DNA of 63,996 nucleotides, filler included, from Stramenopiles sp. TOSAG23-6 (lineage: Eukaryota), in NCBI GenBank assembly GCA_900128565.1. It is 3 parts of 3 records of this genome, joined end to end, with 100 filler letters (N's around TTAATTAATTAA, not from the genome) between each part and the next. Parts side by side here need not be neighbours in the genome. Positions count along the whole stretch, not along the records: positions 25,131 to 50,045 come from LT635999.1; 2 more parts are not named here. One strand, given 5' to 3'. The notes beneath the pieces are model-generated. The model ran no database searches. It was not told where the DNA came from and worked only from the letters and a program-made list of their open reading frames with translations. Both the position numbers and the translations under genes were made by a program. Below are positions 18,840 to 59,152 of this stretch, piece by piece. Positions within the stretch are counted from its first letter, which is position 1. Every line of letters begins with the position of its first letter.

Positions 18840-19157
18840 GATCAAAACTTGATTCTATAAACTCCTCAATGAGAAGATGACATTTGTTTACCTGCGAGTC
18901 AAAACAGTTTATTTTATTGTATATCCAGTAACTACTAGTAGTATGATATCAGAGATCAGGCAGACTCCAGGCAGACGCGACGGAAAACGACGTAGCAATT
19001 TATTTAACCCTAACCCTAGTTAGCATCCGCAATATCCAAGCGGCACACAACGCCACACAACGACGTAGGAGCAGAGCTCTCTATAGCTAGTAGTGAAGAA
19101 GTGCATAAGATAATGACGGTTTGAAATTTAGCAGAATATTCTCATTACCACTAGACG

Positions 19158-25030: not shown

Positions 25031-25130
25031 NNNNNNNNNNNNNNNNNNNNNNNNNNNNNNNNNNNNNNNNNNNNTTAATTAATTAANNNNNNNNNNNNNN
25101 NNNNNNNNNNNNNNNNNNNNNNNNNNNNNN
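25031..25130. other. Artificial contig linker (N-TTAATTAATTAA-N)
   Basis: Six-frame stop linker inside an N run. Confidence 0.95.
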
Positions 25131-25221: not shown

Positions 25222-27176
25222 TTCCCAATATAATCAAACAGAAATGGCTGGTGGAAAATCTCACTGTTTTCTCATTGAAGAAGTAAATCAACAACAAATG
25301 TCATCAAATTCAAATAATAATAAAAATTCTAAAAATGAGGAGTCAATAACAACATGTATGTTTTATTTTTTTTAATTTCGAATTTTTTTTTTTTTTGTTA
25401 ATAGTAAATTTTGTACCTAAAAATTTTTTTAGAATTTTTTTGAAATATTTTTCCAAAATACATACATATCAAGTTGTGCAGATGAAGCATCAAAATTAAT
25501 CTGGATTCGGACAATTGCTACAGAATGCCTTTTTTATGTATGTTTGGAATTTTGAAATTTTTTTTTATTTTTTTTTTTTCATTTTTTTTATTTTTTATTT
25601 TTTTTTTTCATTTTTTATATTTATTTTTTTCGGTAAAAAAAAAAAAAAAATAGCTGTACAACACATATATTTTTTAATTAAATTGTTTCTTTTGTACATA
25701 TTGTTAAAAAAAAATGCATTACAAAAAAAGGATAATGCCTCTATATTAAAATGCATGTATGTTAATTTTTTTTCAATTTTTTATCTAAATTTTTTTTTGT
25801 AGGAAATTTTGTACCTAACAATTTTTTTTTTTTTTTTTTGAAATATTTTTCCAAAATACATGACCAGTCTGTGCTTAGGACTACTTGCTACGGTTGTGTC
25901 TGGGTTGTACAAGTCACAACCACAATTGTCTATTGCTGCTATGAAAGATCGTAAACAAAGGATTAATCTGTCTCTTGGACGTTTATTACCCACCCTTGAA
26001 ATTTTGAGTGTTCATCCATTAGTAGAAATATCAGAGGCTGCCATGGCTTGTCGTAAAAGTGTTATCACAAATGATGCCGCGTATTGTACAAAAAGTAAAG
26101 AGAATAGTGTTAAGGATATACAATCGACGAATAATACAGTTTCAGAAAGTAAAGGCATTGTAGAAATCACTTCAAATAAGAATAATACAATGAATAAGAA
26201 TAATACAATGAATAAGAATAATATTATAAATTCTGTGTCCAATAAGTCACCCCCAAATCAAGAAAATACAGTAAATGACATGATTTCTGAATATATAAGC
26301 GATATTGGAAGCAATCTAGTACCTATTCGTGCTCATGGTGTTGCCGGTATTGCAAGAATTGTGAAACAATATCCAAAACTGACAGTCGATGATCCAAAAC
26401 AATGTGATATGTTATTGAATATTTTACTTTCTCAAACATTGGATGAAGATTCATATGTGTTTTTAGGTGCAATTAAGGCACTTAAAGAAATGGTAGAAGC
26501 ATCCAAATCAAAGGTTGCCCCAATGATTTGTTGTTTACTGCGTGAATTTTCTGATACCTCACGTTCTCTATGCCAAAGGCTTCGTATTGGAGAAGTTTTA
26601 TCGTGTGCGACAAGACGTCGAGGGGAAGCATTAGCATATTATTCCAAACCTCTCGTCAATGCTTTTATTGCTGGAGCTAGATGTAAATCTTCATTACATA
26701 ATGGCCGTCCAACTCTTCAATCTCATGAGTGTAAGAATATTAGTATAGATGATACTGTAAATAACAATGATGGTGAGGAAACGAAGAGACAGATTACAAA
26801 TACAGCAATGAGGACAAGTTGTATAAGTGCTTTATGTGACATATGTCAAACACTTCCTGCAGGGACTTTGCCTCAGCAGGCAGAAGTAATTGTACTTGCC
26901 CAAGCTGCTCTTCGTTTGGATTCTGATGTAAGAGTGAGACGAGCTGCAGCATTTTTGTTATACCAAGTTGTTTCAAATGTACAAAACGCAGAAGATTTGA
27001 AATCTGTAGCACCTGAAATGAAAGAAGTGTATGAAGGCATCAAAATTGGTACTAATGACGTTGATGCTGTGACAAGATCACATTGTGAAGCAGCTTTGGG
27101 TGAAATTGATAGATCTATCCGAGATTCCTTGTGTTCTGATACATCAAAAAGAGAAGTTCGAATCCGTATTTTATAA
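25222..27176 (+). CDS. TANGO6: TANGO6/RTP1 C-terminal part (5' truncated, multi-exon)
   Basis: LVPIRAHG, DEDSYVFLGAIKAL, RLRIGEVL, RTSCISALCDIC, VRRAAAFLL, DAVTRSHC. The 5' boundary is approximate. Confidence 0.8.
25356..25463 (+). mobile_element. Introner-like GT-AT intron
   Basis: acat|GTATGT..GTACCTAA..CCAAAATACAT|ac; splices ITT-Y-ISSC in frame. Confidence 0.75.
25757..25861 (+). mobile_element. Introner-like GT-AT intron
   Basis: tgcat|GTATGT..TACCTAAC..AAAATACAT|gacc; gives ILKC-M-TSLCLGLL. Confidence 0.8.
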
Positions 27177-30052: not shown

Positions 30053-30407
30053 TGCAACGTTTGCTGCGTGCGCACGATTAAGTAATTACACGTGTTTGTT
30101 TGTAGAGTCAGTACGCACAACAAACAACATATATGGTCTGGCAGTTCCTGGGTCAGCTGACAAAACTTCCTGAACAAACCTGCCCTTTTTGCTATTTGCT
30201 ATCAAAAATTTCTTATGATCAAATCTCAAATCTTGAAACAATAGCGTCATTTTTTCTACTGCAATGCAAAAGTATCTGTGAGCACTACTGCTTTATTAAT
30301 TGAATGATGATTGTAAACTCATTGTATTAACATTTGGATAGGTAATTTGTACATGCATAGGCCCTATAGGATTTGATTATATTCTAGTATTGTAGAAAAA
30401 ATATTAG

Positions 30408-31124
30408 ATGAAAATGCAGAGATTGGAAATGCTGATTAGCACAGCTGTAGTACTTTTCTGTTATTTGGGAGGTCCTATGGAATTCATTCAATTATTCAAT
30501 AACCCCGACGCACCTTCTAGTTCCTTTCGCCAATGTGTAGCATATATTTTAAATGGAGGTCTCACTCATGTTAATTTGTCGCCAAATTTTGTAAAGCGTA
30601 GTAAGTCAGTGGATATGTTGGCAATGAGAGCCGAGGAAGTCAACTACGAGTTGACGACACCAGCTTGGGGAAAACACGCTCCTCATTGGAAGTCAAAACA
30701 CTTTCGGATTAATTTTGGCTTAGGCGTGCATCACAATGATTGGCTCGTAGATCAAGGTGAGTTGTTTGGTCCTCAAATGGGAGGTGCAACATTTGGATGG
30801 CGAGGAGATATTACCCCTAATCCTAATCCTAATCCTAATCATAATCCTAATCCTAATCCTAATCCTAACCAAGAGAATGTACTAAATAATCGAAATGATT
30901 TGTCAGTATATGTTTCACAAAGACAAAACTACATAAATGATGTATCTTCTTCCTATTTACTTGCTTCAGGTCTTTGGGAAATTTTAGTCCCTAATGGGAT
31001 TTATAGATGTGTTCTTATTATTGGTGGTGATGAGAGTGACTATAAAAAACATGAACAAAATGATTTGCATAAAATAAAAAAATTGCAAATACAAAAACAA
31101 ATTTTACTTTTGAAATGTATTTAA
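30408..31124 (+). CDS. Hypothetical protein, possible carbohydrate-binding beta-sandwich, with NP repeat
   Basis: 238-aa ORF; RINFG..DQG..FGW..WEILVPNGIY pattern. Confidence 0.4.
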   Translation: MKMQRLEMLISTAVVLFCYLGGPMEFIQLFNNPDAPSSSFRQCVAYILNGGLTHVNLSPNFVKRSKSVDMLAMRAEEVNYELTTPAWGKHAPHWKSKHFRINFGLGVHHNDWLVDQGELFGPQMGGATFGWRGDITPNPNPNPNHNPNPNPNPNQENVLNNRNDLSVYVSQRQNYINDVSSSYLLASGLWEILVPNGIYRCVLIIGGDESDYKKHEQNDLHKIKKLQIQKQILLLKCI

Positions 31125-31141
31125 TTTTTTTTCATATTTTT

Positions 31142-33648
31142 TTACATATTTTTACATTTAAAATTTTTCCATTCTTTTAAAGTTGTCCGAGCAATAGGAG
31201 ATACATTTAAAGTTCGAGCATTTGCATCATCAACTCGTACAACTACGTAATCTCCACGTTTTAAAAACACATTACTACTACTTTTAATAATCTTAGTATT
31301 ATTATTATTATTATTATTTGTAGTATTATTCAAAAACACACTATTATTATCATTTGTAGTATTATTCAAAAATACACTACTACTACTACTACTACTACTA
31401 CTATTAATAATCTTAGAATCATTATTATTATTATTGTTTGTAGTATTATTCAAAAATACACTATTATCATAATTAATAATCTTCTCATCAATATTATTAT
31501 TATTACTATTATTACACTTTTTTGTATATCCATTGAAAAGACTTAACAACAAAGAAGATTCAACAGGAATATTTTCAAATACACAGCGTTTGTTGGTGTC
31601 AGTACGCCCAGTTAATTGCTCGAGCCCAGAAGCACTCACCGCTCTTCTACTATTTCCTTCAACAAGAACTAAATGAAATTGCCCAATTTCAGATAAAGCT
31701 CGTTTAGTAGCTTGTCTGGTAAACACTTCAATAATTTCACGAAGTCGCCTTTGTTTGGTCTCTTCAGGAATATTATCCTTCATTTTATGATAAGCATGCG
31801 TCCGTTCACGTTCGCTATAAGCAAACATGTATTGTTCAAAAATATTTCAAAAACATTGAAATTCATTAAGTACATAATCTCGAAATATCGGGCGTTTCTT
31901 ATAATAAAAAATCTAGTATGAAAAGAAATTATGTAAAAAATTCATGATGAAAACGTATCGAATAAAAATATTTCAAAAAAAAAAAAACATGATGTAAAAA
32001 ATTCATAATGAAAACGTACATATATGCTTGTTCAAAGCCTACAATTTCCATGAGGCTCAATGTGTCAGCATGTTCATCTTCAGTCTCATCACAAAAACCA
32101 GTGATAAAATCAGAACTGAATGCAACACTTTCCTTACCAAATTTTGTACTTGAGGAATTTTCACCAGAGATTATATTTCGTGCATTATCAATCAGAGTAA
32201 GGTACGCCTCACGAGAATACCCGCGTCGCATTCGTCGTAACACAGATGAACTCCCAGATTGAGCAGGCATGTGTAATTGATTACACAAATTATCTCTTTC
32301 TGCATGAAGCTGTAGCAAGGGCTTTGGAAAATCTTTTGGATGAGGAGAAGTATATCGAACTCTCATTTCAGGATCAATTAGAGTAATTGCATCCAGCAAA
32401 TCAGTAAATCGATGGCCATCACCCTGTCTAAGTTTGTATAAATTAGAAAAACCTTCAGCAATCATATACCCTCCCTCAGCTGCCTCAGTCTCAGCATCAC
32501 CTATAGCACGCGCAGCGGCACCACGTTCCGTTTCTTTTGATCGAGTTATACTTTTATGGTTAGGGTTTTTGTATTGCATTGAACTTTTACCAAGTTGATG
32601 CCAATAACTATTTACATTTTGACCAAGTAACGTTACTTCTTTACACCCATTATCCGACAAAGCACGCACTTCATCCAAAATACTCTCAAAAGGACGACTT
32701 CTCTCACGACCACGGGTGAAGGGTACGATGCAATAACTACATGTATTGTGAAAAAGTATATCAACTTCGAAATTAGGGTCATGGTTAGGACAAAACCTTT
32801 GTAGTAGTAGGTACGAAAAAAATTAAAAAGAATGATGAAAACGTACACATGTTATTACAACCTCTCATGATACTACACCATGCAGAGACATTACTCTTTG
32901 AAGTTCGAACTGGTTTGACGTCTGCATATGTTTCATCAAGACTTAGTTGGACGTTCATTGCCCGCTCACCTCCCTGGACAAGCTTGATTAAGTGTGGCAA
33001 GTCTCTGTAAGCATCAGGTCCAGCGATAAGATCAACAATTTTTTCTTCTTCCAATAACTTTGATTTCAAACGTTCAGCCATACACCCAAGAACACCCACT
33101 ACTTGATTTGGTTTCCGACGTGGAGTGCCATGCTGAGCAACTCTCTGTTTTCTCGTCGAGACAGTTTTGTTCTTCAACTCACGAGCAGCGGCCTTGCGCT
33201 CTCCTGTCATATTCCGAAGTCTATTTCTTATTGTATTTTCGGCTCCATCTCGTATAGCACATGTATTTATTAGGACGATATCTGCTGAATTTTCATCAGT
33301 TGTTTTCTTGAAACCTGCATCATCGAGTAAACTGCACACAATTTCAGTGTCAGAAACATTCATTTGACAACCATACGTCTGAATATAATATGTACTACCC
33401 GGTACTTCCAAAAGAACTTGATCAAGAGCATCGGTATTATGATGACCAAATACATGCGCTTTCTGAAGATCTAAGGAAGAAACGGCTTCATTTGAATTTG
33501 CCATAAAGTGCTTGAGAGATAAAACGTCCTCGTCCTTCAACGTTCGCTTTCCTTTCCTAGCCATTTCTGAACCTTTTGATACCACAACTTGTCGTGCTTT
33601 AGAAGAAAATACACGAGATACAAGGTTACATGGATACAACAATCTCAT
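31142..33648 (-). CDS. CDK5RAP1: Mitochondrial tRNA methylthiotransferase (MiaB family), 3 exons
   Basis: [24 protein letters not shown], spliced [38 protein letters not shown] domain. Confidence 0.92.
31827..32019 (-). mobile_element. Diverged GT-AT intron
   Basis: tatat|GTACGT..ACAATACAT|gttt; restores QAY-M-FAYS. Confidence 0.8.
32741..32846 (-). mobile_element. GT-AT intron inside the radical-SAM motif
   Basis: atgt|GTACGT..CCTAAC..ACAATACAT|gtagt; restores CNNM-C-SYC. Confidence 0.88.
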
Positions 33649-33847
33649 TCTTTAGGTATATGGAATAAAAGTGTACACAGTAATGTACTGTCTCGTTTGA
33701 AGTGTCAATTAATTCAGTTAGACTACGGCTTTCGTACTCTAGTTAGTCGTACGTAGTACGCTACAAATTTGAAGAAGTCAAAATTATCGCGAATTTTCGC
33801 TGAACTTATTAAAATTGAATTTCAAATTTCCGGATTTGTCCGATACT

Positions 33848-34037: not shown

Positions 34038-37000
34038 TTATATCTGCTGTTGTGAATTCGAGAGCATTTGCATCATTAACTGTCGCTGTTGCATTAATCT
34101 CAACTGCAGTTGCTGTTGTTGCTGCTGTTGTTGTTGTTGTTGTGGTTGCTGCTGTTGTTGTTGCTGTTTCTGTTGTAGTTGTTGTTGCTGCTGTGTTTGT
34201 TGTTGTTGTTGTTTTTGTTGCTGCTGTTGCTGTTGTTGCTGTTTTTGTTGCTGTTGTTGTTGTTGTTGCTGCCGTTGTTGCTGTATGTAATGCATCTGCT
34301 GCATCCGTTGCTGAGCAAGTTGATACTGTAACAGTTGCTGCTGTCGTTGCATTAAATAATTATGTTGTTGTTGTTGATATTGTTGTTGCTGTTGTTGGTA
34401 TTGTTGTTGCTGTTTTTGTTGTTGTTGTTGTTGTAGCTGTTTTTGTTGTTGTTGTTGTTGTTGCTGTTGTTGATACTGTTGTCGCTGTTGTTGTTTTTGT
34501 TGTTGTAGTTGTTGTTGTGCGTATTGGTATTGTTGTTGTAGTTGTTGTTGTAGCCGTAATTGATGCTGATATTGTTGTTGTATTTCGTTATTTCCTACTT
34601 GTTTGTTAATATTTCGACTATTTCCTACATGATCGTGAATATTCCGACTATTTCCTTGTGATATCAATGAGTTTCTATCAGTTTGTTGTTGTGATACATT
34701 TTTTTTCTTCCCATTCGATTTTGATGATTTGGACGAAATTCGAGCTTTTTTATAATTCTTTTTCAATTCCTCTTCATTTTTTCTTTTTTTAGTTTTCTTC
34801 ATCCCAGAAAAATCAGTAAACCAAGTTAAACTATTCAAAGTTTCATTGAGCATTTTTGAAGATTTTGTTATCTTTTTAACTTTATTTTTTAAATTATTTG
34901 CTTCGAGAGTTAATGCTTTTGCAGTAAAAGGTTTGACGACCCAATCATGTATTNTGAAAAAAAAANTCGTATAAANTNCGTTAGGTACAAAATTTTCTAT
35001 GAAAAAAATAAATAAATTTGAAATTGATAAAACGTACATGATGTCGTTTCTTGAAAAGATTACCCAAGCGATGAGCATACTTAAAATAAATCGAGTCTCC
35101 TGGATTGTACAATTTAGCATTACGAAAAATCAATTCCATGTCAAGCTTAAATTGTGTATATAATTTTAGGAAAATATTTCAAAACTTTCAACTCAATTAG
35201 GTATAGTACAAAAAAAAATCATTACAGATTGATCAAAAAAAAAAAAGAAAAAAAAATGTTAGGTACAAAATTGTGTACGAAAAAAAAACAAAAAGATAAC
35301 ATACATGACTTCGATATTTTCCATCCATTAGTTTTCGTTGTACTTCAATCAGAGACATAGGTTGTTCAATTATTGTATAATACTGAGGAGCGACTTCTTC
35401 AGTAACTGGGTGTAAAAAAGGCTCTGATATATCAAGTTCATTGATACTTGCCCAAACTGCTGCACAATTTCTTAATTTTTTTTCAGGATTTGTTAAATTT
35501 TTTCGTTTCGGTTTTGTTTTTTTAACGATTTTTTTTTTAGTGATTTTACTTGAATTTTCTTTTACGTATACTTTTTTACTATCATTATCATTCGTTCTCG
35601 GAGTATTGTCATCAAAACATTCTTTTGCTAATTGATCCAATTCAAAATCAAGATTAATGCGAGGTTTTGTATTTTTTCGAAGTTTTGGTTGAAGATGATC
35701 AGGGATCAGAGAATCATCACATTCAAGCCCCTGGCGTTTTTGATTAAATCGCCATTGTCGCAATGCACTTCGTCGTTCTCTTTCTTCCCTTGCTTCTTTT
35801 TCTTCTTCTGTTTTTTGTTCAGCAAAAGCAATCATTAACAACTGCTTCCTTTTACTATACTGGGCCTTACTATTTTCGCGACGTTCCAGGCGAAGCCGAC
35901 GAGATTCTTGTTCTCTGAACTCTTTTTCAGCTTTATCTGCTTTTTCTCGTTCAATTCTCTCCTTTTCCCTCTTTGCCTGTTCTAATTCAGCTTCTCTTTT
36001 TCGACGCTCACGTAACTCTTTTGCCTTCTCCTTATTTAACAACAACTGTGCTTCTCTTCTAAAACGCTCTTCTCGTTCTTTTTTTTCTATTTCTTCTCGC
36101 TGGGCAGTATTTTGTGCAACACGAGATGACCGTTTACGTGGCATTAAACTGATGAGCCGTTGTTTCTCTTCTTTCGCTTTTTGCTTTTCTAAAACTTCCT
36201 TTTGTTCATCCCAATCAGAGATGTATTCTAGGAAAATATTTCGAAAATGTGAAATTCGTCAGGTACAAAGTTTAAAAAAAAATGTTTTTTTTTGTTACGT
36301 ATGAAATTTCGTATGAAAAAAAAGTAAAGAAAATGTAGGCAAAACATTCTAGGTAATATTTCAAAATTTTTTTTGAAAAATTGTTAGGTACAAAATTTCG
36401 TACGAAAAAAAAAATAGAACGCACATCATCGTTTCAAGGTGATCTCGAATCGGTTGCTCCAAGTCCCAAAATTCTTTATTTTTTTTTCTTGATTCGCGTT
36501 CTTCTTTTGCTTTCTTCAATTCCGCTTTTGCTTTCTTCAATTCCGCTTTACTTGCTTTTTTATTTTTTTTATTTTTTTGAGTTTTCTTGTTTTTTTTTGT
36601 TTTTCTCAAAGGTTTTACAGCCTTCTTTGTAAATTGACTTAACAATTCACGAATATTAGCAATACCCGAAGCAACTAATGTCCATTTTGGCTCCGCGAAA
36701 TTTTTCCAGGAAGAGATTCGTTTTGAAGTCTCCTCTATAAAATTACGATGCTCACAAAGTTCACCATCAGAATCAACATCTTCACTTGCAACAAAATTAC
36801 ATTGTTTTTCGTGTTGGTTCACTTCATCTAAAGTTCCTTCAAAAGGACAACCATTTGTCTCGCATTCATATTCAGCCTCTGTTTTGTCTTCACATTTTCG
36901 TTGTACGGTTTGTCTGTAGACACGAAATTCTTTCCAGAAGGATTCAAACCAAAAATATCTAAATCCATTACGATCTACCGCAAATGGTTCGACTCGAAGA

Positions 37001-43343: not shown

Positions 43344-46033
43344 TTAACTTCTTTCACACGTACTAACTCTTTTATTACCCTGGATTGGATTTTGACTATC
43401 CACTACATCATGAGGATCAGGATCTCCTTGAGGGAAACCTAACAACCATGTATTTTGGGAAAATATTTCAAAAAAAAAAACTAAAATTTGTTAGGTACAA
43501 AATGTCGTACGAAAAAAAAACTCGAATTTGAAAAAAAATAAAACATACATAGACAAGCTGATGATTTTCTTTCTGAAACTAAATTATTTAACATGTCACA
43601 CAAAATGTCACTACTCGATTCAAGTAATACTAAAGTTACCAAACGCTCATAACACGTGAAACTTTCATATTCTCCAGTATTTCCTTTGTTTTTACGCATA
43701 TTTGCTAGATATTTATCAAGATGTTTTTTTGCGGTCCTTGCGTCATTGACATTTAGAAGATTCTTAATTTCACATAAGGAATATAAAGTGACATCCGATT
43801 CACTACAGAATTGTCGCAGAGTTGCTGCAGTTGTTTTATGAGTAAATGTAATATTTTCAGGAATTGTTGAAATATCACAATTCCCATTGTTTTCTTTGAT
43901 TAATCCATATCTTCCTAAAAATTTATCATTTCTTGAAGACTTTTTGAAGAATTTGATAGTTTTACAAATTAATGATTCAGTTACGTTTAGGTTTGGTTCA
44001 TTAGATTCACTCGGAGTATTAAATTCTATAGTATCATGTATTGAATCGCCTATTGTAGAAATTGTAGAAATTGTAGAACTAGGGTTAGGGTTAGTAGAAG
44101 GGACAGTCACTTCTGGACTAATTACTGTAGATAAATTAGTTGTTGAAGTTTTGCCTTCACCAACAGACAAATTAGTTGTTGAAGTTTTGCCTTCACCAAC
44201 AGACAAAATAATATCTCCATTCGTATTATTGGTTGCTGCCGCTGTCTTTATTTCTATAGAATTTGTAGATGTAGGAACATCATTCATTTTACAATCTATT
44301 TCATGAAATGCTCTTTTCCGAGCCACGCGTTTTATTATTGGAGAATCTGTATCACATTTCGTCTCTAACGAATTTTGAATTTGTGTCTTCTCAGCATCAT
44401 CCTCTCTAGCATCAACAATATCAGTCTCATCTAAAATGTCCATATTTGTCAAATTAAGTAATCTATCATTTAACTCAGCATCTTTAGAAAGACCTTTCTT
44501 ACATGAAGAAATTAGTTTATCCACAAAAAGTTGAACTTCTTCATATATTCGATGATTACTATTATGGATTGTTAGAGTAATTGAATTATCCTTTGTGCGT
44601 TGGGATGAAATTTGAGTATTTGTAGCTTTGGAAGCATTATCATCATTCACAAGCTTTCGAAGAAGCAATTCCAGAACATTTTGACTAAACAAATGTGCAA
44701 ATGCTTTATCAATGACGACAGTATAAGGAATTTGAATATTTGCAGTTTCTTTTAATAACATTTCTTCTTCATTCACTGTAAAATCTTCTGCTCCTTTTAG
44801 TTTCATTTCTTCTTCATCCACTGTAAAATCTTCTGCTCCTTTTAGTTTCATTTCTTCTCTATACGCCTCAAGATCTTCTGCAACATTTGATTCCATTCGA
44901 TATGCTTCAAGATCTCCTTCAAGATCACCAGAGTCAGAGTCACATTCGTCGTTTTTCATTTTAGAGGTTTTAGATTTTTTTGACTTTTGTCTCTTCGATT
45001 GTGAATGTTTTGGAGAGTTAGAATTAGGAATCTTCCTTTTTTTTGATTCCTCTTTTTTTTTAGTGAATGAAGGTGATTTATCGCCGTCCATTCCAACAAA
45101 ATTAAATTTAACTTTGTCTCTACCTCGGGGTCTATGTATTTTGGAAAAATATTTCAAAAACAATTGTTAGGTACAAAATTTCGTACGAAAAAAAAATTCG
45201 AATTTGAAAAAAATAAAACATACAAATTCCTGATGTCGGATTTCTGCGACTGGCCATTGATTTTCGGATACAACAGTATGACTGTAACATTTTTCAGGAA
45301 TTAAATTTACATCAATGTCTAACACTCTCTGTAACTCTACTGAAGAGCGACAGGTTTTTGAAAGACTGGCATTATGATAGTAGACATCAGCTCTTCTAGA
45401 CCCATTTTTTTGAGGTTTTTTACGCCAATTTAGTTTAATAACCCAACCAGGGGGAGGCCATGATAATGATTTCTTTCCTCTTCTAGCACCTTTTGGACTC
45501 TTCTTTTTTATTACTTTTTTTACTACTTTTTTTACTACTTTTTTTACTTTTTTACTTTTTTTGGTAATTTCATTATGAAACATACTATCCGATATACTAT
45601 CCAAGGGATCTAACACTTTCACTCTTCGCAAACCACTCTGTGGTACTTTTGAAACCACAGATGTTTTCAAAGCCGAATATCTCCTTTTATTTTCTTTTTT
45701 TCTTTGTTCGCTGGCTAAGTCTCCTATAGACGGAAAAGTAGCTTTCGGAGTTTTGGACTTAGATTTTGATATACTTGGATGCTTTTTTTTATTACTAATT
45801 GACTTCCTCAACACTGATTTATTACTGATGCTAACTTTTCCAGAGAATTTAGATGAAGGCTTGTGCGAAGTTATTGTTGACTTAAACTTTTTAGGTCGCG
45901 TAGTAGTTGTGGTTACTTTTACTTGCTTTGGTTCACTTTGAATTTCCTCCACATCATTGAATATATCCATAATATCATCAGACAAATCCATATTGCAACT
46001 CTCTGAAAAATCGACCTCTGTCATTGTGATCAA
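43344..46033 (-). CDS. MBD (methyl-CpG-binding-like) domain protein, 3 exons
   Basis: PPPGW....RK......RADVYY......CRSSVEL motif; ORFs joined by the introns at 45134-45223 and 43448-43548. Confidence 0.6.
43448..43548 (-). mobile_element. Introner-like GT-AT intron
   Basis: ctat|GTATGT..TACCTAAC..CCCAAAATACAT|gg; an in-frame AG 9 nt downstream also exists. Confidence 0.7.
45134..45223 (-). mobile_element. Introner-like GT-AT intron
   Basis: gaattt|GTATGT..TACCTAAC..AAAATACAT|agaccc; in frame only with the AT acceptor. Confidence 0.82.
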
Positions 46034-47348: not shown

Positions 47349-48752
47349 TCAAGGTTTAGTTAATGGTTTCCTAGCGGTAAAAAATGCAGTGTTATAAACA
47401 GTTCCCATCATAGATAATCCATCGGAAGCATATGTCGAATGTCGTTTTTCTTCTCTTCTTATTATAAAACCGAAAGACTTAACTACATATTTTGTAAAAA
47501 AATATGTCAAGTTTGCATTTTGTTAGATCTAAAAAAATATAGGATTTGAAATTGAATAGGTACAAAGAAAAACATAGAAACTAAAAGTAACGAAGAAAAC
47601 TTACATGAATGAGTTCATCATAGCTCAGCTCTATTGACTGCTCATATCGACAATCATTTTCACCCACTGAAGCATTAGCCCAATGATACAAAAGAGGTCC
47701 CATATTTATCCACACACCTCCGGGTTTTAATAATTTCCATATTAATTTGATATATCGTGAAAACATATATTACATTTGAAATTTGTTAGGTATGGAATTC
47801 TCATTGATTATTTTTTTTAAATATTGATGAAAACATACATATAATCAAATATATTCGGTGCTGTATCTATAAAAAAACATGTCAAAATAGCATCCCAGTT
47901 ACTAGATTGCTTACTATACACTTCCAAAAACTCACCAGCACACATCGAAACATTCAGGCCAGGATTTTTATGCATTACGTCCATTGGAGATAGGTCTGGA
48001 ATATATATAGGTCGCGCCATGTTGGCATTTGACCAATTATTGCATCTCTTATCTATCCAAGGATGAATACAAATTTCGTCGACATGAGAAGTTTTATTGA
48101 GCATATAGGTACTGGCTAATAACATAACATATGAAAATTCATTGCCCTGAACTTCATATCCTCGACTGGCCAACTCAAGTACGAGCCTACCCGCGCCACA
48201 ACCTGGGGCAAGAACTCGCTGTACGTTTTTATTGGCGTCAGTTACCGGAAGACAATTTTCCAACTCTTCTAACATTGGAATCATACACTGTGATCGCTCT
48301 TCAGAACCTTCAGACGACCACTCTCTAGAAAGTTGATGGAGAGTACTAACTACTTTTGACATACTATGTCCACTACTTTCGATAACAATATCGTCTCTCT
48401 CAGGAATATGACTTTCATTAGCAATATTTGGTAACGACTGTCGCCCATCAAGTCGCTCTTCCTCTGTAGTTGATTGTTCATGTTGAAAACTATTATAACT
48501 GCTCGCGATTTTCCAACATAAAGAGTTATTCGTATGCACTGCATTCACCAACATATCAATATTGCAACATACACCTTTTTTGCCTCCAGGAAGACGCGAT
48601 AACTGGTCAGGTGAAAGTGATAACATATTGTTTCTTTTTCTGATCACGTCCTTCATAGCATACGCACCATACTCGTTGTAAGATTTAACAACATCAAGAA
48701 AATGTCTACGTTCTTCCTCACTACCCACTTCGGGTAACTTTCCAGATGACAT
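47349..48752 (-). CDS. CARNMT1: Carnosine N-methyltransferase (N2227 family), 3 exons
   Basis: [58 protein letters not shown]. Confidence 0.9.
47487..47604 (-). mobile_element. Diverged GT-AT intron
   Basis: attcat|GTAAGT..TCTAAC..CAAAATAT|gtagtt; gives ELIH-VVKSFGF. Confidence 0.78.
47750..47838 (-). mobile_element. GT-AT intron
   Basis: tatat|GTATGT..TACCTAAC..GATATAT|caaa; gives [16 protein letters not shown]. Confidence 0.82.
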
Positions 48753-49991: not shown

Positions 49992-50045
49992 ATGTATTTT
50001 GGAAAAATATTTCAAAAAAAAATCGTTAGGTACAAAATTTCGTAC
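49992..50045 (-). mobile_element. 3' half of introner, truncated by contig end
   Basis: GTACGAAATTTTGTACCTAAC..CCAAAATACAT|. Confidence 0.8.
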
Positions 50046-51642: not shown

Positions 51643-53687
51643 TTATGGAAGTTGAGAATTACACGGCCATTGAGGACTATTAAGAGGATCAAATGTCTCT
51701 TTGATTGTCCTTGCAGAAGTCCATTTTAAGTTATTCAATATGGTACCTGTCTTATCATTCGTACCTGATTTACGAGAGCCACCAAAGGGTTGTTCCCCAA
51801 CAGCAGCACCTGTACATTTATCATTTACATAAAAGTTACCAGCTGCATTTTGTAGTATGTTTTTTGGAAAAATATTTGAAAAAAAAAAACTTAAATTTGT
51901 TAGGTACAACATTTCGTACGAAAACCAAAAAAAAAAATCGAATTTAAAAAAAAATAAAACATACATAGAGTCTGCAACACGAACTGCTCGTCTGCATTCA
52001 GAAAATATTGAGCCAGTCAGAGCATATTCAGATGTTTCATTACATATCTCAAGTGTTGCTTCATAATCTGCTGCATCATACGTATGTATTTTGGAAAAAT
52101 ATTTAAAAAACAAAATCTAAAAAAAATTGTTAGGTACAAAATTTCGTACGAAACCAAAAAAAAACAAAAAAAAAAACAATTCAAATTTTCAAAAAAATAA
52201 AACATACATATACTGTTAGTACAGGTCCAAATAATTCATCACACATTGTCGAATATTTTGGATTCTTGGTAACAATAATTGTAGGTTCAATGAAAAATCC
52301 CTTTGAATCATCATATTTTCCTCCTACAAGAACTTCACAATCAGATGATGCATTTGCTTCATCAAGATACTTTGCAATATTATCAAACGAGCTACGATCA
52401 ATTACAGCCGTCATGAAACTGCCAAAATCAGTTGAACAACCTACTTTTAGTGTATTTGTAGCTGCAATGAGTTTATCCTTTACCTCATTCTCCCAGGAAT
52501 GTTCTGGAATATATGTATTATGAAGAAATATTTTACATTCAAAAGTAAAAAAAAATGTTAGGTACAAAATTGTCTATGAAAAAAAAAAAAAAATTCGAAA
52601 TTGAAAAAAAATAAAACATACATAATCGACTTGTGGCTGAACATTTTTGGCCTTGATAATCAAATGCTCCACGTGCAGTATGATTCACTACAGAATCCAT
52701 GTCTGCACTCTCATGTACGAAATGAAAGTTTTTACCTCCCGTTTCTCCAACGACACGCGGATATGATTTGTAACTTGCAATATTTTCAGCAACACACTGC
52801 CAAATTGTATGAAACGTACCAGTACTACCCGTGAAATTTACTCCACCAAGATCTTTGTGTGGAATCGCAACATTGCCTACTGTTGATCCACTACAAGGGA
52901 TGAAATTAATTACACCATCAGGAAGTCCAGCTTCCTTGAAAATTTTCATGACAAGCCAACTTTCGTGTACAGCAGTAGATGAAGGTTTAAAAAGGACAGT
53001 ATTTCCCATTAACGCTGGAATTCCAGATAAATTTGCACCAAGAGCACAAAAATTAAATGGAGCAACCGCCAAGACAAAACCTTCTAATGCACGATGTTCA
53101 ATACGATTCCAGTAGTTTTGAGCGCGGTACAAGGAAGGTGGTTGAATACTGTAAATCTCGGATGCATTCTTTACACCAAAGCGGANAAAATCTGAAATCT
53201 CTGAATTATCAATATCAGCTTCACGAGGAGTTTTTCCTGTACCCAACATTATAGAGGCATTTAGTTCTTCACGGTATTTTCCAGCACATAAGTCTGCAAC
53301 TTTAAGAAATACAGCAGCTCGGTCTTCAAACGGCCAATTAGCCCATTCACGTGCCTCTGTGCTCATGGCCGCATCTATTGCTGACTGAATTGTAGCTTCA
53401 TCTGCCAGATGGAATTTACAAATCTCGTGACCATGCTCCGTTGGCATAACCTGACTTACCGTGTTTCCAGTAAAGACATCTTTACCATTGATAATGCATG
53501 GAATTTCCACATGGCTTGCATACAACTTGTCTACTTCTTCTCGAAGCTTGGCACGATCCGAAGAACCAGGAGCGTACGTCTTTGGAATCTCATTTCGAAT
53601 CCAACTGAAATCCCAATTAGCAAAACCTGATACAGCTCGCGTTGGTAGCCTAGCTAAAGTCATCCTACGTACACTAGAGGAAAGCAT
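51643..53687 (-). CDS. ALDH4A1: Delta-1-pyrroline-5-carboxylate dehydrogenase, 4 exons
   Basis: APFNF, FTGSTGTF, GETGGKNFH, GQKCSA, ELFGPVL, AAGNFYVNDKCTGA, QPFGGSRKSGTNDK. Confidence 0.93.
51857..51964 (-). mobile_element. Introner-like GT-AT intron
   Basis: tctat|GTATGT..TACCTAAC..CCAAAAAACAT|acta; gives ADS-I-LQNAAGNFY. Confidence 0.85.
52084..52207 (-). mobile_element. Introner-like GT-AT intron
   Basis: gtatat|GTATGT..AAAATACAT|acgtat; gives GPVLTVY-TYD. Confidence 0.83.
52513..52621 (-). mobile_element. Introner-like GT-AT intron
   Basis: ttat|GTATGT..TACCTAAC..TAATACAT|atatt; gives KCSATSRL-Y-IP. Confidence 0.87.
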
Positions 53688-55132: not shown

Positions 55133-55703
55133 TCATATATTATGCTGATTACAAGCGTTCACCGGTTCGTATTCAATCAGCGATACATTATTATCAGACG
55201 CAATACTCTTAGGAGCAGCTGGTGTTGATTGGACGTCATCTGGGAATGGTGAAACTTTCCCCCACTTATCTACAGAAAGACGCATAAAATTTCCTACCAT
55301 GTATTTTGGAAAAATATTTAAAAAAAAAATCGTTAAGTACAAAATTTCGTACGAAAAAAAATAAATTCGAAATTAAAAAAAATAAAACGTACATTATCAC
55401 TTTACTATTGCGTAAAACTACAACATTATTTTCTTGGAGAATTTTTATCTGCTTATCCTGTGCTGAAAACAATACACAACCAGACTCATCCCCAATGAGT
55501 ACATCGGCTTCAAGTAAAACCCTTCCATTAGGGAAATTTGTTTCAAAGATTGTTTTGATTTCTATTACTTTTACAACTAGATTTGCACCACACTCATTTG
55601 GATCTAACTGAGATATAGTAAGATATGATGCTCGAGCAAGATTTGCTCTTTCTGGTGAATTTTCAATAGTATTGGCTGTTGCGTCCAAGGTTGAGTGTTG
55701 CAT
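55133..55703 (-). CDS. Small OB-fold nucleic-acid-binding protein, 2 exons
   Basis: NLVVKV..LIGDESGCVLFSA..LRNSKVIM...MRLSVDKWGKV..NNVSLIEYE. Confidence 0.8.
55299..55392 (-). mobile_element. Introner-like GT-AT intron
   Basis: ataat|GTACGT..TACTTAAC..AAAATACAT|ggta; gives SKVI-M-VGNFMRL. Confidence 0.85.
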
Positions 55704-56242: not shown

Positions 56243-59152
56243 ATGAGTAGTGAGAGTCACAAAAAAGATTTGAATAAAAAACAGTCGTCGTTGAGGCTTG
56301 AGGCAATTGGTTTCGGTGCCTCAACTAAAAAAATCATCGGTGCCTCGACTACAACTGCACAATCAACACCAGAGTTGTTGAAATATTCAAGTACAAATAC
56401 TTATAATGAAATTCCTATTTCTTCATATGATATTAAAACTTCTCAAAAAAGTGTAGCACCTCTAGCTTCAATTCAACCAGCTTCATCTACTGTAGAAGTG
56501 TTTGCCAAAAATGGAGGTAAATCAGAGGTAGATTCTAAAGGAAAATATGAATATAGAAGAGTTATAAACAGTACTTTTAAAAAGCAAATTCAAGATGAGG
56601 ATAAAAAAGCTTTTCCGCCATCAAGTGTAGTAGATAAAGAGAAAAAAAATAGATCAAAAACGAGTTTTCTAACAAAACAAACTACACAGAATTCAAAAAC
56701 CACTATTGATAGTACACAAAGAGTAAGTAATAAACAAAAAANAAAACAAAATAATAGTACAATAAAGAATGTAGGTGCTTCTTTTACCCGATCTACAAAA
56801 TCTACAAAATCTAAAAAAATAAATACATTACACCCAAACAATAAAAATCAGAAAAAAATGACTATAAAGTCAAGAAGAAAAACTCTCCGTTTTAACACAA
56901 TGTCGCCAACACCAAGTTTGCAAACAAAAAAGGAAAGAGCTCTTCGGTATGCTAATGCAGCGCAGCAGAGGAAACAAATGCGTTCATTCAAACCATTACA
57001 AAATAAAGATCTTGTTGAAAAAACGGCTCCTCTCCTAAAATCGATTTTAGAACCGAAAATTAAAATATCAATTTTAGAACCGAAAACTAAAACTGTAAAA
57101 AAATCTGATGATATTATCAATTTGAAGGCTGTACATCCAGTGAAAAGTAATTATGTCAATGATTCTATCTCACCGATATATAAAAATATAAAACCAAGTA
57201 TGAGAGGCAGGCAAATTTCATTAGTAGAATCGGGGGATATGTATGTTTTATTTTTTTTTTTTTTTTCGGTAAAAAAAAATCGAATTTATTTTTCGTACGA
57301 AATTTTGTACCTAACATTTTTTTTTTGAAATATTTTCCTACAATAAATACGAAAACAAAATAATTTGTTCTTAGATTTAGATATACTGCGTATTCAGCAG
57401 GAGTATGAAGACAAATTAGAATTAGAAGAGTGTCAACTTTCACCTGGTGGTACGTATAAAGCTGGCCCTGATTGGCGCATTAAACAAGAAGGAATTACAA
57501 ATCCGCCGTCTGGAACCTCAAAGGCTGTACGTCTGAGATATCGTACTGTTTCCGCACGAGCTCGAAGTAGACGAGGCAGTTTAAAGGATGAATTTCTGAC
57601 ATTAACAAATCTTGGTCGGGGTGGTTCTAGTGTTGTATTTAAAGTGATACATGTTCCATCTTTACAAGTTGCTGCAATTAAAAGAATTCGAGTTGGTAGC
57701 AAACAAAAATGTGAAGTTGTTCGACATGAACTTCAGGCACTACATGCTAATATTGTCCCATTGGGAACTGTAGTGACACAGTCACCGTGTCCTAATATAG
57801 TAACATTTCATGATGCTTACACAGATATCCAAGAAATGAGTGTCGGTCTTGTGCTACAATATATGGATGCAGGTTCTCTTCAGGATTGTGTAAATGATTT
57901 TCCCACGACCCGAACTTTAAATGGAAAAATAATTCCAAAACGTCCAGAAGATTGGACCGAAAAATCAATTTCTATAGTTTTATATGGTATTTTGAAAGGT
58001 ATTGAATATTTGCATTCACAACAAAAACTTCATCGAGACATCAAACCTTCAAATGTATTGCTATCATCAGCTGGTGAAGTTAAAGTATCTGATTTTGGTA
58101 TTGCGCGTACTATATCTGAAATATCAAGCGGGGTAAATGACTCTATTTATAATCATAATACTAATAATAGTATCGATACCAAAGAAAGCACAAATAGCGA
58201 TACACTTTCGACTACAAAACTAAATCGACCAAAACAATCTATCTTATCTCTTGAATCAAATAGTTTAGATAGTGTCAATTTTCATGGCCAAAAAACATTC
58301 ACTGGGACAATGCTCTATATGTCGCCTGAACGTCTTGAAGGATTGCATTATTCCTACGCATCCGATATTTGGTCAGTAGGACTAATCATTATGGTCATGG
58401 CATTGGGTCAATTACCTTTTCAGGGAGTCGATGGTTTTTGGGGAATGAAAGAAGCTTTGAAGACATCAAATGGCATTCGGAAGATTGCTGATAAAATGAT
58501 GCAAGGAAAACATTCATTATCATCTGATTTATGTGATTTTTGTAAACAATGTTTGCAAATGGATCCAAATAAACGACCATCAGCAAAGCAACTTTTACAA
58601 CATAAGTTCCTATCATCGGCAGCAAAAGCTACTATAGGGCAGCGTAGGAGAACTGTAAAAAAAATGATAGGTAGTAGGATTCCATCCTATGAATACCGTG
58701 TGAGAGAACTTGAACATATAGCGGATGTAATTGCTCAAGAGTATAATGCACGTCTTCTCCGAAGCCGACCATCATCTGCACCAATACTACCAACTGATGA
58801 TAGGAAAAGTAATCGAATCGCTACATTGAAATCATTACGACATATTCCTAAAAAATTTCCAATTATCAAAACTTCAATAAATAACAACAATACAGATCGA
58901 ACGCCTTCGCCGCCTTCTAGACAAAAATACACACAAAAAAATGAGTATAATAGTTATGATGCCGGTGTTGGGGAATCTGGATTACAACGTCCAGCTGCTG
59001 ATGCAATTGCTCGCCTTGCAGTGCAACTTGGTCTTCCGGTTGAAACAGCACAATTAGTATTTATAGATGCTTTTTCAAAAAATATGAAAGATTCGCGTAA
59101 AACTAAATCTTATTCAACAACTATACGCGCAAAAAAGCAAAGTATTCAATAG
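56243..59152 (+). CDS. MAP kinase kinase (STE7-like) with long basic N-terminus, 2 exons
   Basis: LGRGGSSVV, AIKRI, YMDAGSL, HRDIKPSN, SDFG, TFTGTMLYMSPERL, SDIWSVG. Confidence 0.85.
57241..57348 (+). mobile_element. Introner-like GT-AT intron (AAT end)
   Basis: gatat|GTATGT..TACCTAAC..CAATAAAT|acga; joins the two ORFs in frame; downstream AGs are out of frame. Confidence 0.72.

What the first reader, a model, noticed from the sequence alone, without database searches (positions are those of the whole stretch)
32730..32860. Decisive locus: an insert splits the CxxxCxxC motif of MiaB and only a non-AG junction repairs it
Seen: AAC ATG T|GTACGT..ATACAT|GT AGT TAT TGC gives CNNMCSYC. The AG 4 nt downstream gives a frameshift, or CNNIYC (motif destroyed) with the alternative upstream GT. 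The exon ends in GT rather than AT, so an AT-AC reading is impossible here. Known: the three Cys ligate the essential 4Fe-4S cluster of radical-SAM enzymes.
Basis: partly seen in the sequence, partly recalled or inferred. Interest (0 to 1): 0.8.

Follow-up and report, generated by a model that had tools for sequence, protein, structure and literature searches.

The report
MiaB intron ending in AT
A 106-base insert really does split the iron-sulfur motif of a mitochondrial MiaB gene in a marine protist, and it belongs to a repeated family of introns that all appear to end in AT instead of the usual AG, although at this one site an ordinary GT-AG cut could also repair the motif.

Summary
The sequence is as described. 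On the minus strand a CDK5RAP1/MiaB gene is split by a 106-nt insert (32846-32741) inside CxxxCxxC.

The claim that only a non-AG junction repairs the motif is wrong. GT at 32842 paired with AG at 32737 is in frame and gives CNNMCTYC. A public gene model (P0001) uses this pair, and Thr occupies that position in 32 of 193 homologues.

The wider idea holds. I examined 16 inserts in the window. All lie on the coding strand, start GT[A/G]NGT and end AT, and all restore the flanking frames when cut as GT..AT. For none does a GT/GC-AG pair give the same mRNA, and three have no such pair nearby.

The second MiaB insert (32019-31827) has the same termini. Its only in-frame GT-AG option deletes the [F/Y]xYS block that 205 of 206 homologues align from exon 3's first residue. 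Three inserts in a P5C-dehydrogenase gene abut exactly, or within one residue, on the family profile.

The inserts are a multi-copy, MITE-like "introner" family with yeast-like 5' and branch signals.

No RNA contig bridges a junction, so splicing itself remains inferred. I found no report of this in the searched papers on MAST-3 stramenopiles.

The parts
32847..33648 (-). MiaB/CDK5RAP1 exon 1. The start is uncertain (ATG at 33648 or 33564). It ends ...RGCNNM plus the first base of the split Cys codon.
   Evidence: translation. UPF0004 hit at 3.7e-27. TIGR00089 profile positions 1-151. 62% identity to P0002 residues 562-799.
32741..32846 (-). Insert 1, the finding: a 106-nt intron read as GT..AT (GTACGTTTTCAT...CACAATACAT). 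Branch-like TCCTAAC and CCCTAAT lie upstream of the 3' end.
   Evidence: It is present in an independent DNA contig. It shares its 13-nt 5' end and 10-nt 3' end with insert 2.
32737..32842 (-). Alternative canonical GT-AG intron (GTTTTC...ATGTAG), also 106 nt. It gives CNNMCTYC and is the choice made in public model P0001.
32020..32740 (-). MiaB exon 2: the last two bases of the Cys codon, then [15 protein letters not shown]...GFEQAYM.
   Evidence: Radical_SAM hit at 1.6e-14. TIGR01574 alignment ends at profile position 332. 70% identity to P0002 residues 801-1019.
31827..32019 (-). Insert 2: a 193-nt intron read as GT..AT, with the same termini as insert 1. It holds an internal duplicate of its own 5' part. 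Its 3' part matches the family profile.
   Evidence: (E 2.5e-5). DNA depth is 116-350 against about 8 in the exons.
31145..31826 (-). MiaB exon 3: [10 protein letters not shown]...KNM, followed by a stop. It includes an Asn-rich low-complexity insert and the TRAM region.
   Evidence: TIGR01574 alignment starts at profile position 333. 205 of 206 homologues align from residue 1.
52513..52621 (-). Family intron in the P5C-dehydrogenase (ALDH4A1-like) gene, read GT..AT. The GT-AG option at 0/+9 creates a stop.
52084..52207 (-). Family intron in the P5C-dehydrogenase gene. The exons abut at TIGR01236 profile positions 426|427.
51857..51964 (-). Family intron in the P5C-dehydrogenase gene. The exons abut at profile positions 465|(split Ile)|467.
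45134..45223 (-). Family intron whose upstream exon ends TT rather than AT. Only GT-AT or TG-CA give the open frame (more than 100 codons on each side).
43448..43548 (-). Family intron, GT..AT.
47750..47838 (-). GT..AT intron in a gene I take, from recall, to be a carnosine N-methyltransferase-like gene. No GT/GC-AG pair lies within +-21 nt of its ends.
47487..47604 (-). GTAAGT..ATAT intron followed by GTAG. Like insert 1, it also allows a +4/+4 GT-AG reading.
55299..55392 (-). Family intron, GT..AT.
57241..57348 (+). Family intron ending AAAT. No GT/GC-AG pair lies within +-21 nt. The flanking ORFs are 364 and 601 codons.
25356..25463 (+). Family intron, GT..AT.
25757..25861 (+). Family intron, GT..AT.
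36221..36424 (-). Composite 204-nt intron (GTGCGT..ACAT) holding two partial copies of the element. It lies in a gene whose downstream exons read like a bromodomain (label recalled).
35158..35304 (-). Family intron ending TATAT, in the same gene.
34947..35037 (-). Family intron (contains N) in the same gene. No GT/GC-AG pair lies within +-21 nt.

Best explanation
The insert at 32846-32741 is a spliceosomal intron in a functional nuclear gene for mitochondrial MiaB/CDK5RAP1. The organism is a marine protist. The label on the closest database model suggests a MAST-3 stramenopile.

The intron belongs to a multi-copy, MITE-like 'introner' family. The family carries strong U2-type signals: a 5' GTAYGT, a branch site TACCTAAC 32-46 nt from the 3' end, and a T-run. 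Its 3' end is ...A(C/T)AT, not AG.

The element (GTAT...ATAC, short inverted ends) sits between a duplicated AT. The intron is the element plus the downstream AT copy, so removing it restores the original coding sequence exactly. Here that gives TGT AGT TAT TGC, which is CNNMCSYC.

Shown: the anatomy, the copy number, the coding-strand orientation, frame restoration, and exact colinearity with homologues.

Inferred: that RNA splicing occurs, that a U2-type spliceosome does it, and that the cuts fall at G|...T| rather than one base to the left.
For: (1) Gene identity. UPF0004, Radical_SAM and TRAM hits lie on three colinear exons. The exons abut on five orthologues with exactly one residue left for the split codon.

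(2) Sixteen of 16 inserts start GT[A/G]NGT and end AT. All 16 lie on the coding strand of their flanking ORFs (p about 1.5e-5). All 16 restore long open frames when cut as GT..AT; a 1-in-3 chance at each gives about 2e-8.

(3) The only boundary pairs that give the required mRNA in all 16 are GT-AT and the pair one base to the left (TG-NA). AT-AC fails in 6 of 16. No GT/GC-AG pair gives the same mRNA in any of the 16. Three inserts have no GT/GC-AG pair within +-21 nt.

(4) The two MiaB inserts share 13 nt at the 5' end and 10 nt at the 3' end. Insert 2's only in-frame GT-AG turns AYMFAYSER into AYIER. Yet 205 of 206 homologues align from exon 3 residue 1, with [F/Y]xYS in all the tallied classes, and TIGR01574 reads 332|333 across the junction.

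(5) In the P5C-dehydrogenase gene, TIGR01236 profile coordinates read 426|427 and 465|(I)|467. The third junction fits within one residue. Canonical options delete 3-6 residues or create a stop.

(6) Repeat nature. An nhmmer profile built from 8 copies gave 17 hits at E <= 1.4e-4, the 8 training copies among them. Mean pairwise identity is 84%. Metagenome DNA depth is 116-350 over insert 2 against about 8 over the exons.

(7) Exon stretches occur at 99% identity or more in contigs of three RNA libraries.

(8) The first AG downstream is out of frame in 11 of 16.
Against: No RNA contig or database protein bridges any junction, so splicing itself is not shown.

At this locus a GT-AG pair at +4/+4 also keeps the frame and the motif (CNNMCTYC). 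Thr is found there in 32 of 193 homologues, one of which is P0001 itself.

GTAG directly follows the AT end in 2 of 16 inserts, which is more than chance allows (p about 0.0015). I cannot explain this.

The exon base before GT is T in 16 of 16, so GT-AT and TG-NA cannot be told apart from sequence.

A terminal stem appears in only 4 of 7 folds, and the folding energies are no better than shuffled sequences.

The 3' motif alone is not enriched in the window: 12 matches against 8.2 expected.

One stretch (25538-25756) did not resolve under the GT..AT rule.

Population variants in the MiaB exons are 5 synonymous to 5 non-synonymous, which is only weak evidence of constraint.
Confidence: 0.7

Rival explanations
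1. At this locus the intron is an ordinary GT-AG intron (32842-32737, GTTTTC...ATGTAG). The protein then reads CNNMCTYC, as in public model P0001.
For: The pair is in frame, has the same 106-nt length, and leaves the motif intact. Thr occupies that position in 32 of 193 homologues. A second insert (47604-47487) has the same GTAG arrangement and the same +4/+4 option. Two of 16 is more than chance.
Against: The donor would be GTTTTC, with a consensus GTACGT only 4 nt upstream. Every one of the 16 inserts carries GT[A/G]NGT at that upstream position.

Insert 2 has the same termini but no AG at +4. Its only in-frame GT-AG deletes a universally conserved block.

Fourteen other inserts have no equal-length AG option.

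The closest orthologue, P0002, has Ser.

P0001 looks like a homology-driven model. It also removes six open, in-frame stretches of 36-84 nt.
Confidence: 0.17
2. The inserts are removed from RNA at the same junctions but not by the standard spliceosome pathway. Examples would be removal guided by pairing of the intron ends, as proposed for euglenid, diplonemid or Amoebophrya non-conventional introns, or cuts one base to the left (TG..CA).
For: The ends are short inverted repeats ([A]TGTAT/ATACAT). They pair in 4 of 7 minimum-energy folds. Direct repeats overlap the boundaries. T precedes GT in 16 of 16.
Against: Consensus GTAYGT, TACCTAAC and a T-run are present in nearly all copies. According to the review passages read, euglenid non-conventional introns lack such a pyrimidine tract. 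The stems are weak and not better than shuffles.
Confidence: 0.07
3. The inserts are transposon insertions that are not removed, so MiaB and the other host genes are dead. Alternatively, the inserts are cut out of the DNA in another nuclear form.
For: No spliced RNA was seen. The family is repetitive.
Against: All 16 inserts are in sense orientation, and all 16 have intact flanking frames that are colinear with homologues. Exon sequences appear in RNA libraries. The only DNA form seen in an independent metagenome holds the insert, at exon depth.
Confidence: 0.04

Closest known systems
Introner elements: MITE-like, transposon-derived spliceosomal introns of Micromonas, Aureococcus, dinoflagellates and others (review PMC11282704, passages read)
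   Same: Many near-identical short introns, with short inverted ends and a duplicated target at the boundaries. One splice site is carried by the element and the other is formed at the duplication. The genes are otherwise intron-poor.
   Different: As the review describes them, the classical families are spliced at GT-AG. Here the duplicated target is AT and the 3' end is AT in 16 of 16. No transposase was seen in the window.
Non-canonical MITE-derived introns of the tunicate Fritillaria borealis (described in PMC11282704; abstract of PMC13326754 seen in the listing)
   Same: Introns of transposon origin at species-specific positions, with non-GT-AG borders, thought to be handled by a modified U2 spliceosome.
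   Different: There the commonest borders are AG-AC and AG-AT, so the 5' GT is lost. Here the 5' site is a textbook GTAYGT and only the last base departs from the rule. The host is a stramenopile protist, not an animal.
Amoebophrya introners and non-canonical introns (PMC7789003, passages read)
   Same: Repeated introns with inverted repeats of 8-20 nt and direct repeats of 3-5 nt overlapping the boundaries. More than 60% of introns are non-canonical. GT-AG-based gene predictors fail.
   Different: In Amoebophrya no dinucleotide signature dominates. Here one signature (GT..AT) and one element family account for every insert examined.
Rare GT-AT introns of mammals: a U2-type example in DGCR2, and 7 U12-type GT-AT introns in human plus mouse (PMC1557818, passages read)
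   Same: The same terminal dinucleotides. They show that both spliceosomes can process GT-AT.
   Different: Those are isolated exceptions among hundreds of thousands of introns. Here GT-AT is the rule in the window. The family lacks the U12 5' box (ATCC). Its branch motif lies 32-46 nt from the 3' end.
Non-conventional introns of euglenids and hemistasiid diplonemids (PMC12621601 abstract; PMC11282704 passages)
   Same: Non-AG ends, repeats at the junctions, and possible pairing of the intron ends.
   Different: Those lack conserved GT and a pyrimidine tract. Both are present here.
CDK5RAP1 / MiaB tRNA methylthiotransferases
   Same: UPF0004, radical-SAM and TRAM architecture. The three N-terminal Cys contexts (YGCQMN, NTCAIR, GCMAE) and CxxxCxxC are all present.
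   Different: Lineage-specific low-complexity inserts. The summed TIGR01574 score of the separate exons (about 321 bits) is below the 355-bit cut-off for the bacterial equivalog.

Membership tests
MiaB/CDK5RAP1 methylthiotransferase | N-terminal UPF0004 domain with three conserved Cys | tested here: met
   PF00919 hit at 3.7e-27 on exon 1. YGCQMN, NTCAIR and GCMAERL are seen in the translation. The assignment of these Cys to the second cluster is recalled knowledge.
MiaB/CDK5RAP1 methylthiotransferase | Radical-SAM CxxxCxxC followed by the core domain | tested here: met
   The motif is restored either as CNNMCSYC (GT..AT) or as CNNMCTYC (GT-AG at +4/+4). PF04055 hit at 1.6e-14 on exon 2. 193 of 240 retrieved homologues show CxxxCxxC, and the other 47 show no match to the pattern.
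MiaB/CDK5RAP1 methylthiotransferase | C-terminal TRAM domain | tested here: inconclusive
   PF01938 scores 17.1 bits, below the 21-bit cut-off. TIGR01574 aligns exon 3 to profile positions 333-410.
U2-type GT-AG spliceosomal intron | 5' GT with a consensus hexamer | tested here: met
   GTATGT 10, GTACGT 4, GTAAGT 1, GTGCGT 1, out of 16.
U2-type GT-AG spliceosomal intron | Branch-site motif and pyrimidine tract upstream of the 3' end | tested here: met
   A CTRAY motif, mostly TACCTAAC, lies 32-46 nt from the 3' end in 13 of 16 by my pattern. T-runs follow it. Branch-point use was not tested.
U2-type GT-AG spliceosomal intron | 3' terminal AG | tested here: not met
   All 16 end in AT. No GT/GC-AG pair gives the frame-restoring mRNA in any of them. 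Only insert 1 and 47604-47487 have an equal-length AG alternative.
U12-type (AT-AC or GT-AG) intron | 5' box RTATCCTT, and a branch box TCCTTAAC 10-26 nt from the 3' end (consensus recalled) | tested here: not met
   The 5' end is GTATGTTTT or GTACGTTTT, without the CC. The branch-like motif lies 32-46 nt from the end. There were no snRNA hits in the window.
Introner element (MITE-like intron family) | Many similar copies, all inside genes and in sense orientation | tested here: met
   17 nhmmer hits at E <= 1.4e-4, 8 of them the training copies. 16 of 16 examined are in sense and between same-strand ORFs. Metagenome depth is raised over the inserts. Only this window was examined, not the genome.
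Introner element (MITE-like intron family) | Terminal inverted repeats and a target-site duplication | tested here: inconclusive
   GTAT...ATAC ends with an imperfect 9-nt inverted repeat. AT precedes the element in 14 of 16 and follows it in 16 of 16. No empty site or autonomous element was found.
Euglenid-type non-conventional intron | No conserved GT, no pyrimidine tract, and a stable stem joining the ends | tested here: not met
   GT and T-runs are present. The terminal stem appears in 4 of 7 folds, with z-scores from -1.65 to +1.70.
DNA-level eliminated sequence (ciliate IES type) | A DNA form without the insert | tested here: not met
   The only DNA contig across the site holds the insert. 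No joint at 32741/32846 was reported in the one DNA run laid, X3. Contigs can hide rare forms.

The most novel reading that the evidence does not exclude
In this marine stramenopile lineage most introns are young, transposon-derived introners that a U2-type spliceosome removes at GU...AU. If so, the 3' splice-site dinucleotide has shifted from AG to AU for the dominant intron class of a genome, and the elements spread because 'element plus one AT target copy' is excised exactly. Published GT-AG-only gene models for such genomes would then be systematically wrong.
Probability: 0.5. Interest if true: 0.8.

Novelty: new variant of a known kind. Interest (0 to 1): 0.66.

Why it matters
A dominant intron class ending in AU would give a natural system for asking how the spliceosome picks the 3' splice site. 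From recall, in solved spliceosome structures the last G pairs with the first G. Here a U would take that place while the A at -2 is kept.

It would also add a stramenopile case to the short list of lineages where transposon-derived introns went along with relaxed splice-site rules. The review read names Fritillaria, Amoebophrya and euglenids.

There is a practical consequence too. The public model of this very gene (P0001) forces GT-AG. It loses the conserved MFAYS block and removes six open in-frame stretches. Gene counts, completeness scores and calls of pseudogenes for such single-cell genomes could be distorted in the same way. The three papers on MAST genomes that I term-searched do not discuss splice sites: 'splice' and 'canonical' each 0 times in PMC5778133 ('intron' twice), 'intron' 0 times in PMC8163842 and in PMC12614181. 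Their supplements were not seen.

Tried and rejected
RNA evidence.
- The one read-laying run put three metatranscriptome runs and one DNA run on 31000-33800. The RNA contigs cover only exon pieces: 33199-33349, 33497-33647, 32284-32446 and 32935-33175. None bridges either insert.
- The joints it reported (for example 32022->32741 and 31958->32741) join ends of different element copies. Similar ones occur in DNA too, so they reflect other loci, not splicing.

Database searches.
- Exon 1, longer proteins: the only near-identical hit is gene model P0001.
- Exon 2, similar lengths: best 56% identity.
- P5C-dehydrogenase exon B: best 59% identity.
- None of these gave a transcript-derived protein of the same species.
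- Metagenome loci: best 51% identity, so no close relative, no empty site and no cDNA-like contig.

Other attempts.
- No genome is held for the window.
- Earlier notes of this scan returned nothing.
- Rfam gave no hits in the window.

Readings considered and rejected.
- AT-AC: fails in 6 of 16.
- A TA target duplication with TG..CA element ends: this would leave 2 extra bases, but the P5C-dehydrogenase junctions are colinear with the profile.
- Use of an internal AG 24-33 nt before the 3' end: such an AG is present in only some copies, and at insert 1 it gives C-x11-C.
- U12-type introns: the boxes and the spacing do not fit.

Terminal stems are not significant.

Literature. No paper in the library combines 'introner' with MAST-3, MAST-4, Incisomonas, Solenicola or Nanomonadea. 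None combines 'GT-AT', 'introns', 'non-canonical' and 'protist'.
Full report
**What is there**

The gene lies on the minus strand. Three open stretches encode a CDK5RAP1/MiaB-type tRNA methylthiotransferase.
- Exon 1 runs from the start (33648 or 33564) to 32847. It carries UPF0004 (3.7e-27) and ends ...SIMRGCNNM plus one base.
- Exon 2 (32740-32020) begins with the last two bases of a Cys codon, then [15 protein letters not shown]. It carries Radical_SAM (1.6e-14).
- Exon 3 (31826-31145) begins [10 protein letters not shown] and holds the TRAM region, which scores 17.1 bits, below the cut-off.

Against five orthologues, exon 1 ends one residue before exon 2 begins. For P0002 the coordinates are 799 and 801. 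Exon 2 abuts exon 3 exactly, 1019|1020 in P0002.

Two inserts interrupt the gene. Insert 1 is 32846-32741 (106 nt). Insert 2 is 32019-31827 (193 nt).

**Checking the observation**

The quoted text is correct. Five boundary pairs (TG-CA, GT-AT, TA-TG, AC-GT, CG-TA) give the mRNA ...ATG TGT AGT TAT TGC, which is CNNMCSYC. GTACGT with the AG 4 nt downstream gives a frameshift. The upstream GT with that AG gives CNNIYC.

With the same AG (32738-32737) it gives a 106-nt GT-AG intron, in frame, reading CNNMCTYC.

I enumerated 117 GT-AG, GC-AG and AT-AC pairs around the insert. Thirty-seven keep the frame open. This pair is the only one that keeps CxxxCxxC at the orthologous spacing.

Thr at that position is natural. 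Among 193 homologues that show the motif, 132 have Ser, 32 have Thr and 29 have Ala (one of the Thr cases is P0001).

P0001 is a database protein whose nine blocks match the window's translation exactly, and it uses this GT-AG pair. So "only a non-AG junction repairs it" is not true, and this locus is not decisive on its own.

The insert itself is real. An independent seawater DNA contig (X3) is colinear over 31939-33296, including insert 1, at exon depth.

**The inserts are a family**

The two MiaB inserts share TGTACGTTTTCAT at the 5' end. With up to 2 mismatches this motif has 12 matches in the window against 3.3 expected, and 0 of 100 shuffles reach that number. The only two exact matches are these two inserts. 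They also share CAATACATGT at the 3' end. That motif is not enriched by itself, with 12 matches against 8.2 expected.

Self-comparison and a fuzzy search turned up a much larger family of 90-125 nt: exon...AT|GTATGTTTTATTTTTTTT-AAATTCGA-T-run-CGTACGAAATTTTGTACCTAAC-T-run-GAAATATTTTTCCAAAATACAT|exon.

A profile built from 8 copies gave 17 hits at E <= 1.4e-4, the 8 training copies among them. The 3' part of insert 2 is hit at 2.5e-5. Insert 1 is too diverged to be hit. The 8 copies are 84% identical on average.

In the metagenome DNA run, depth over insert 2 is 116-350 and over insert 1 is 19-30, against about 8 over the exons (at 90% likeness).

**Sixteen of sixteen behave as GT..AT introns**

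I defined 16 inserts, 14 and 2 more, tabulated.
- All lie between ORFs of the same strand, in sense orientation (p about 1.5e-5).
- All begin GT[A/G]NGT: GTATGT 10, GTACGT 4, GTAAGT 1, GTGCGT 1.
- All end in AT.
- Thirteen have a CTRAY branch-like motif, mostly TACCTAAC, 32-46 nt from the 3' end, followed by T-runs.
- Cutting at G|...T| restores a long open frame in all 16. A 1-in-3 chance at each gives about 2e-8.

The boundary pairs that give the same mRNA differ from copy to copy. Only GT-AT and the pair one base to the left (TG-NA) are common to all 16.

AT-AC fails in 6 of 16. The upstream exon ends TT at 45223 and GT at insert 1. The 3' end is not AC at 57348, 35158, 47487 and 47750.

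No GT/GC-AG pair gives the frame-restoring mRNA in any of the 16. Three inserts (57241-57348, 35037-34947, 47838-47750) have no GT/GC-AG pair within +-21 nt of their ends. The first AG downstream is out of frame in 11 of 16.

**Where the protein decides**

Insert 2's only in-frame GT-AG (0/+12) replaces AYMFAYSER with AYIER. Of 206 homologues that match the start of exon 3, 205 align from its first residue, with [F/Y]xYS, preceded mostly by A[YF][ML], which is how exon 2 ends. TIGR01574 reads 332|333 across the junction.

In the P5C-dehydrogenase gene (53768-51646, minus strand), three family introns leave exons whose TIGR01236 coordinates read 324|(Tyr)|about 326, 426|427 and 465|(Ile)|467. 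The summed score is about 648 bits against a cut-off of 613.6. The canonical alternatives there delete 3-6 residues or create a stop.

The logic for the MiaB gene follows. Insert 1 rules out AT-AC but allows GT-AG at +4/+4. Insert 2 rules out AG but allows AT-AC. The two inserts share their termini, so a single rule that serves both must be GT-AT or a neighbouring shift. Across all 16, only GT-AT or TG-NA remains. Because GTAYGT is the standard 5' splice-site hexamer, GT-AT is the economical reading.

**Mechanism, shown and inferred**

Shown:
- the repeat family and its orientation;
- the conserved 5', branch and T-run signals;
- the invariant AT end;
- exact restoration of the coding sequence.

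Inferred:
- The element proper is GTAT...ATAC, with short imperfect inverted ends, flanked by a duplicated AT. AT precedes the element in 14 of 16 and follows it in 16 of 16.
- The intron is the element plus the downstream AT, so excision recreates the pre-insertion sequence. This is the introner logic described in the review read, except that the duplicated target supplies AT rather than AG.
- A TA duplication with TG..CA ends is rejected, because it would leave two extra bases.

The intron ends can pair ([A]UGUAU with AUACAU). Such a stem appears in 4 of 7 minimum-energy folds, but the energies are not better than shuffles. I therefore treat end pairing as possible help, not as the mechanism.

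From recall, in solved spliceosomes the A at -2 of the 3' site pairs with the branch A, and the last G pairs with G1. Here the A is kept and U replaces G.

**Is the gene alive?**

All catalytic motifs are present. Exon pieces occur at 99% identity or more in contigs of three RNA libraries, although the tool warns that DNA can be present in such libraries. Ten population differences in the exons split 5 synonymous to 5 non-synonymous, which is only a weak sign of constraint.

**What is missing**

No RNA contig and no database protein bridges a junction. No close relative or empty site was found in metagenome contigs. No genome is held for the window. Splicing is therefore inferred.

Three things remain unexplained or unresolved.
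- GTAG follows the AT end in 2 of 16 inserts, insert 1 and 47604-47487 (p about 0.0015).
- T precedes GT in all 16.
- The stretch 25538-25756 did not resolve under the rule.

**Comparison with what is known**

GT-AT introns exist as rare exceptions in mammals: a conserved U2-type case in DGCR2, and 7 U12-type cases in human plus mouse (PMC1557818, passages).

Transposon-derived introns with non-canonical borders are known in three places:
- Fritillaria, with AG-AC and AG-AT borders;
- Amoebophrya, where more than 60% of introns are non-canonical and no dinucleotide dominates;
- euglenids (PMC11282704 and PMC7789003 passages) and hemistasiid diplonemids (PMC12621601 abstract).

The present family differs in keeping a textbook 5' site, branch site and T-run while changing only the last base, and in being uniform.

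It is not U12-type. The ATCC box is absent and the branch motif lies 32-46 nt from the 3' end.

The label of P0001 suggests a MAST-3 stramenopile. I did not trace the sample. Papers on MAST genomes that I term-searched do not discuss splice sites. No paper in the library combines 'introner' with MAST-3-related names. The supplements of these papers were not seen.

**Verdict**

The claim of decisiveness is wrong. The underlying phenomenon, a family of introner-type introns ending in AT, is well supported by sequence and comparison and appears to be unreported, but it awaits RNA proof.

For insert 1 itself I put GT..AT at about 0.7-0.75 and the GT-AG +4/+4 reading at about 0.17.

Noticed in passing
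31145-33504, minus strand (P0001 mapped on the window): Public gene model P0001 has 8 introns. Six of them (84, 57, 57, 36, 75 and 48 nt) are multiples of three and lie inside the uninterrupted open frames of my exons 1-3. They look like poorly conserved protein segments cut out by a homology-driven predictor, not real introns.
   Followed up: partly
36221-36424, minus strand: A 204-nt intron holding two partial tandem copies of the element (two CGTACGAAATTT...CCTAAC-type cores). It still restores the frame as GT..AT.
   Followed up: partly
31921-32018, minus strand: Insert 2 carries an internal duplicate of its own 5' part (32018-31981 against 31957-31921, 89% over 38 nt).
   Followed up: no
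49992-50222; also 25031-25130 and 24496-24615: Runs of N, two of them split by TTAATTAATTAA, sit inside or next to family copies. The assembly seems to break at this repeat. The copy at 50222 also starts ATAT instead of GTATG.
   Followed up: no
25538-25756, plus strand: A stretch between two family introns that starts GTATGT but did not give a consistent frame under the GT..AT rule. It may hold a small exon or may be low-complexity non-coding sequence.
   Followed up: partly
19853-19859, plus strand: Two long ORFs overlap by 7 nt in different frames, with no insert between them. The downstream one is a ferric-reductase-like gene by Pfam. This may be a one-base assembly error or a frameshift.
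   Followed up: no
880-4668, 5853-10595, 14451-18854, 27314-30085, 60407-63079: Very long uninterrupted ORFs of 891-1581 codons: MARCHF6-like, CFAP61-like, SUN-domain, ankyrin/RING and ankyrin. Apart from the repeat family, the genes in the window are intron-poor, which fits recent intron gain. No transposase domain was found among the nine large ORFs scanned.
   Followed up: partly
32741/32022 and 31958/32741 (joints): Contigs in an RNA run (X7) and in the DNA run (X3) join the 3' end of a MiaB-type element almost directly to the 5' end of another. Other loci of this genome probably carry adjacent copies of this sub-family.
   Followed up: no
47487-47604 and 32741-32846, minus strand: In both inserts the seven exon bases after the AT end are the same (GTAGTTA). 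Both allow an equal-length GT-AG reading shifted by 4 nt. I have no explanation for this.
   Followed up: partly
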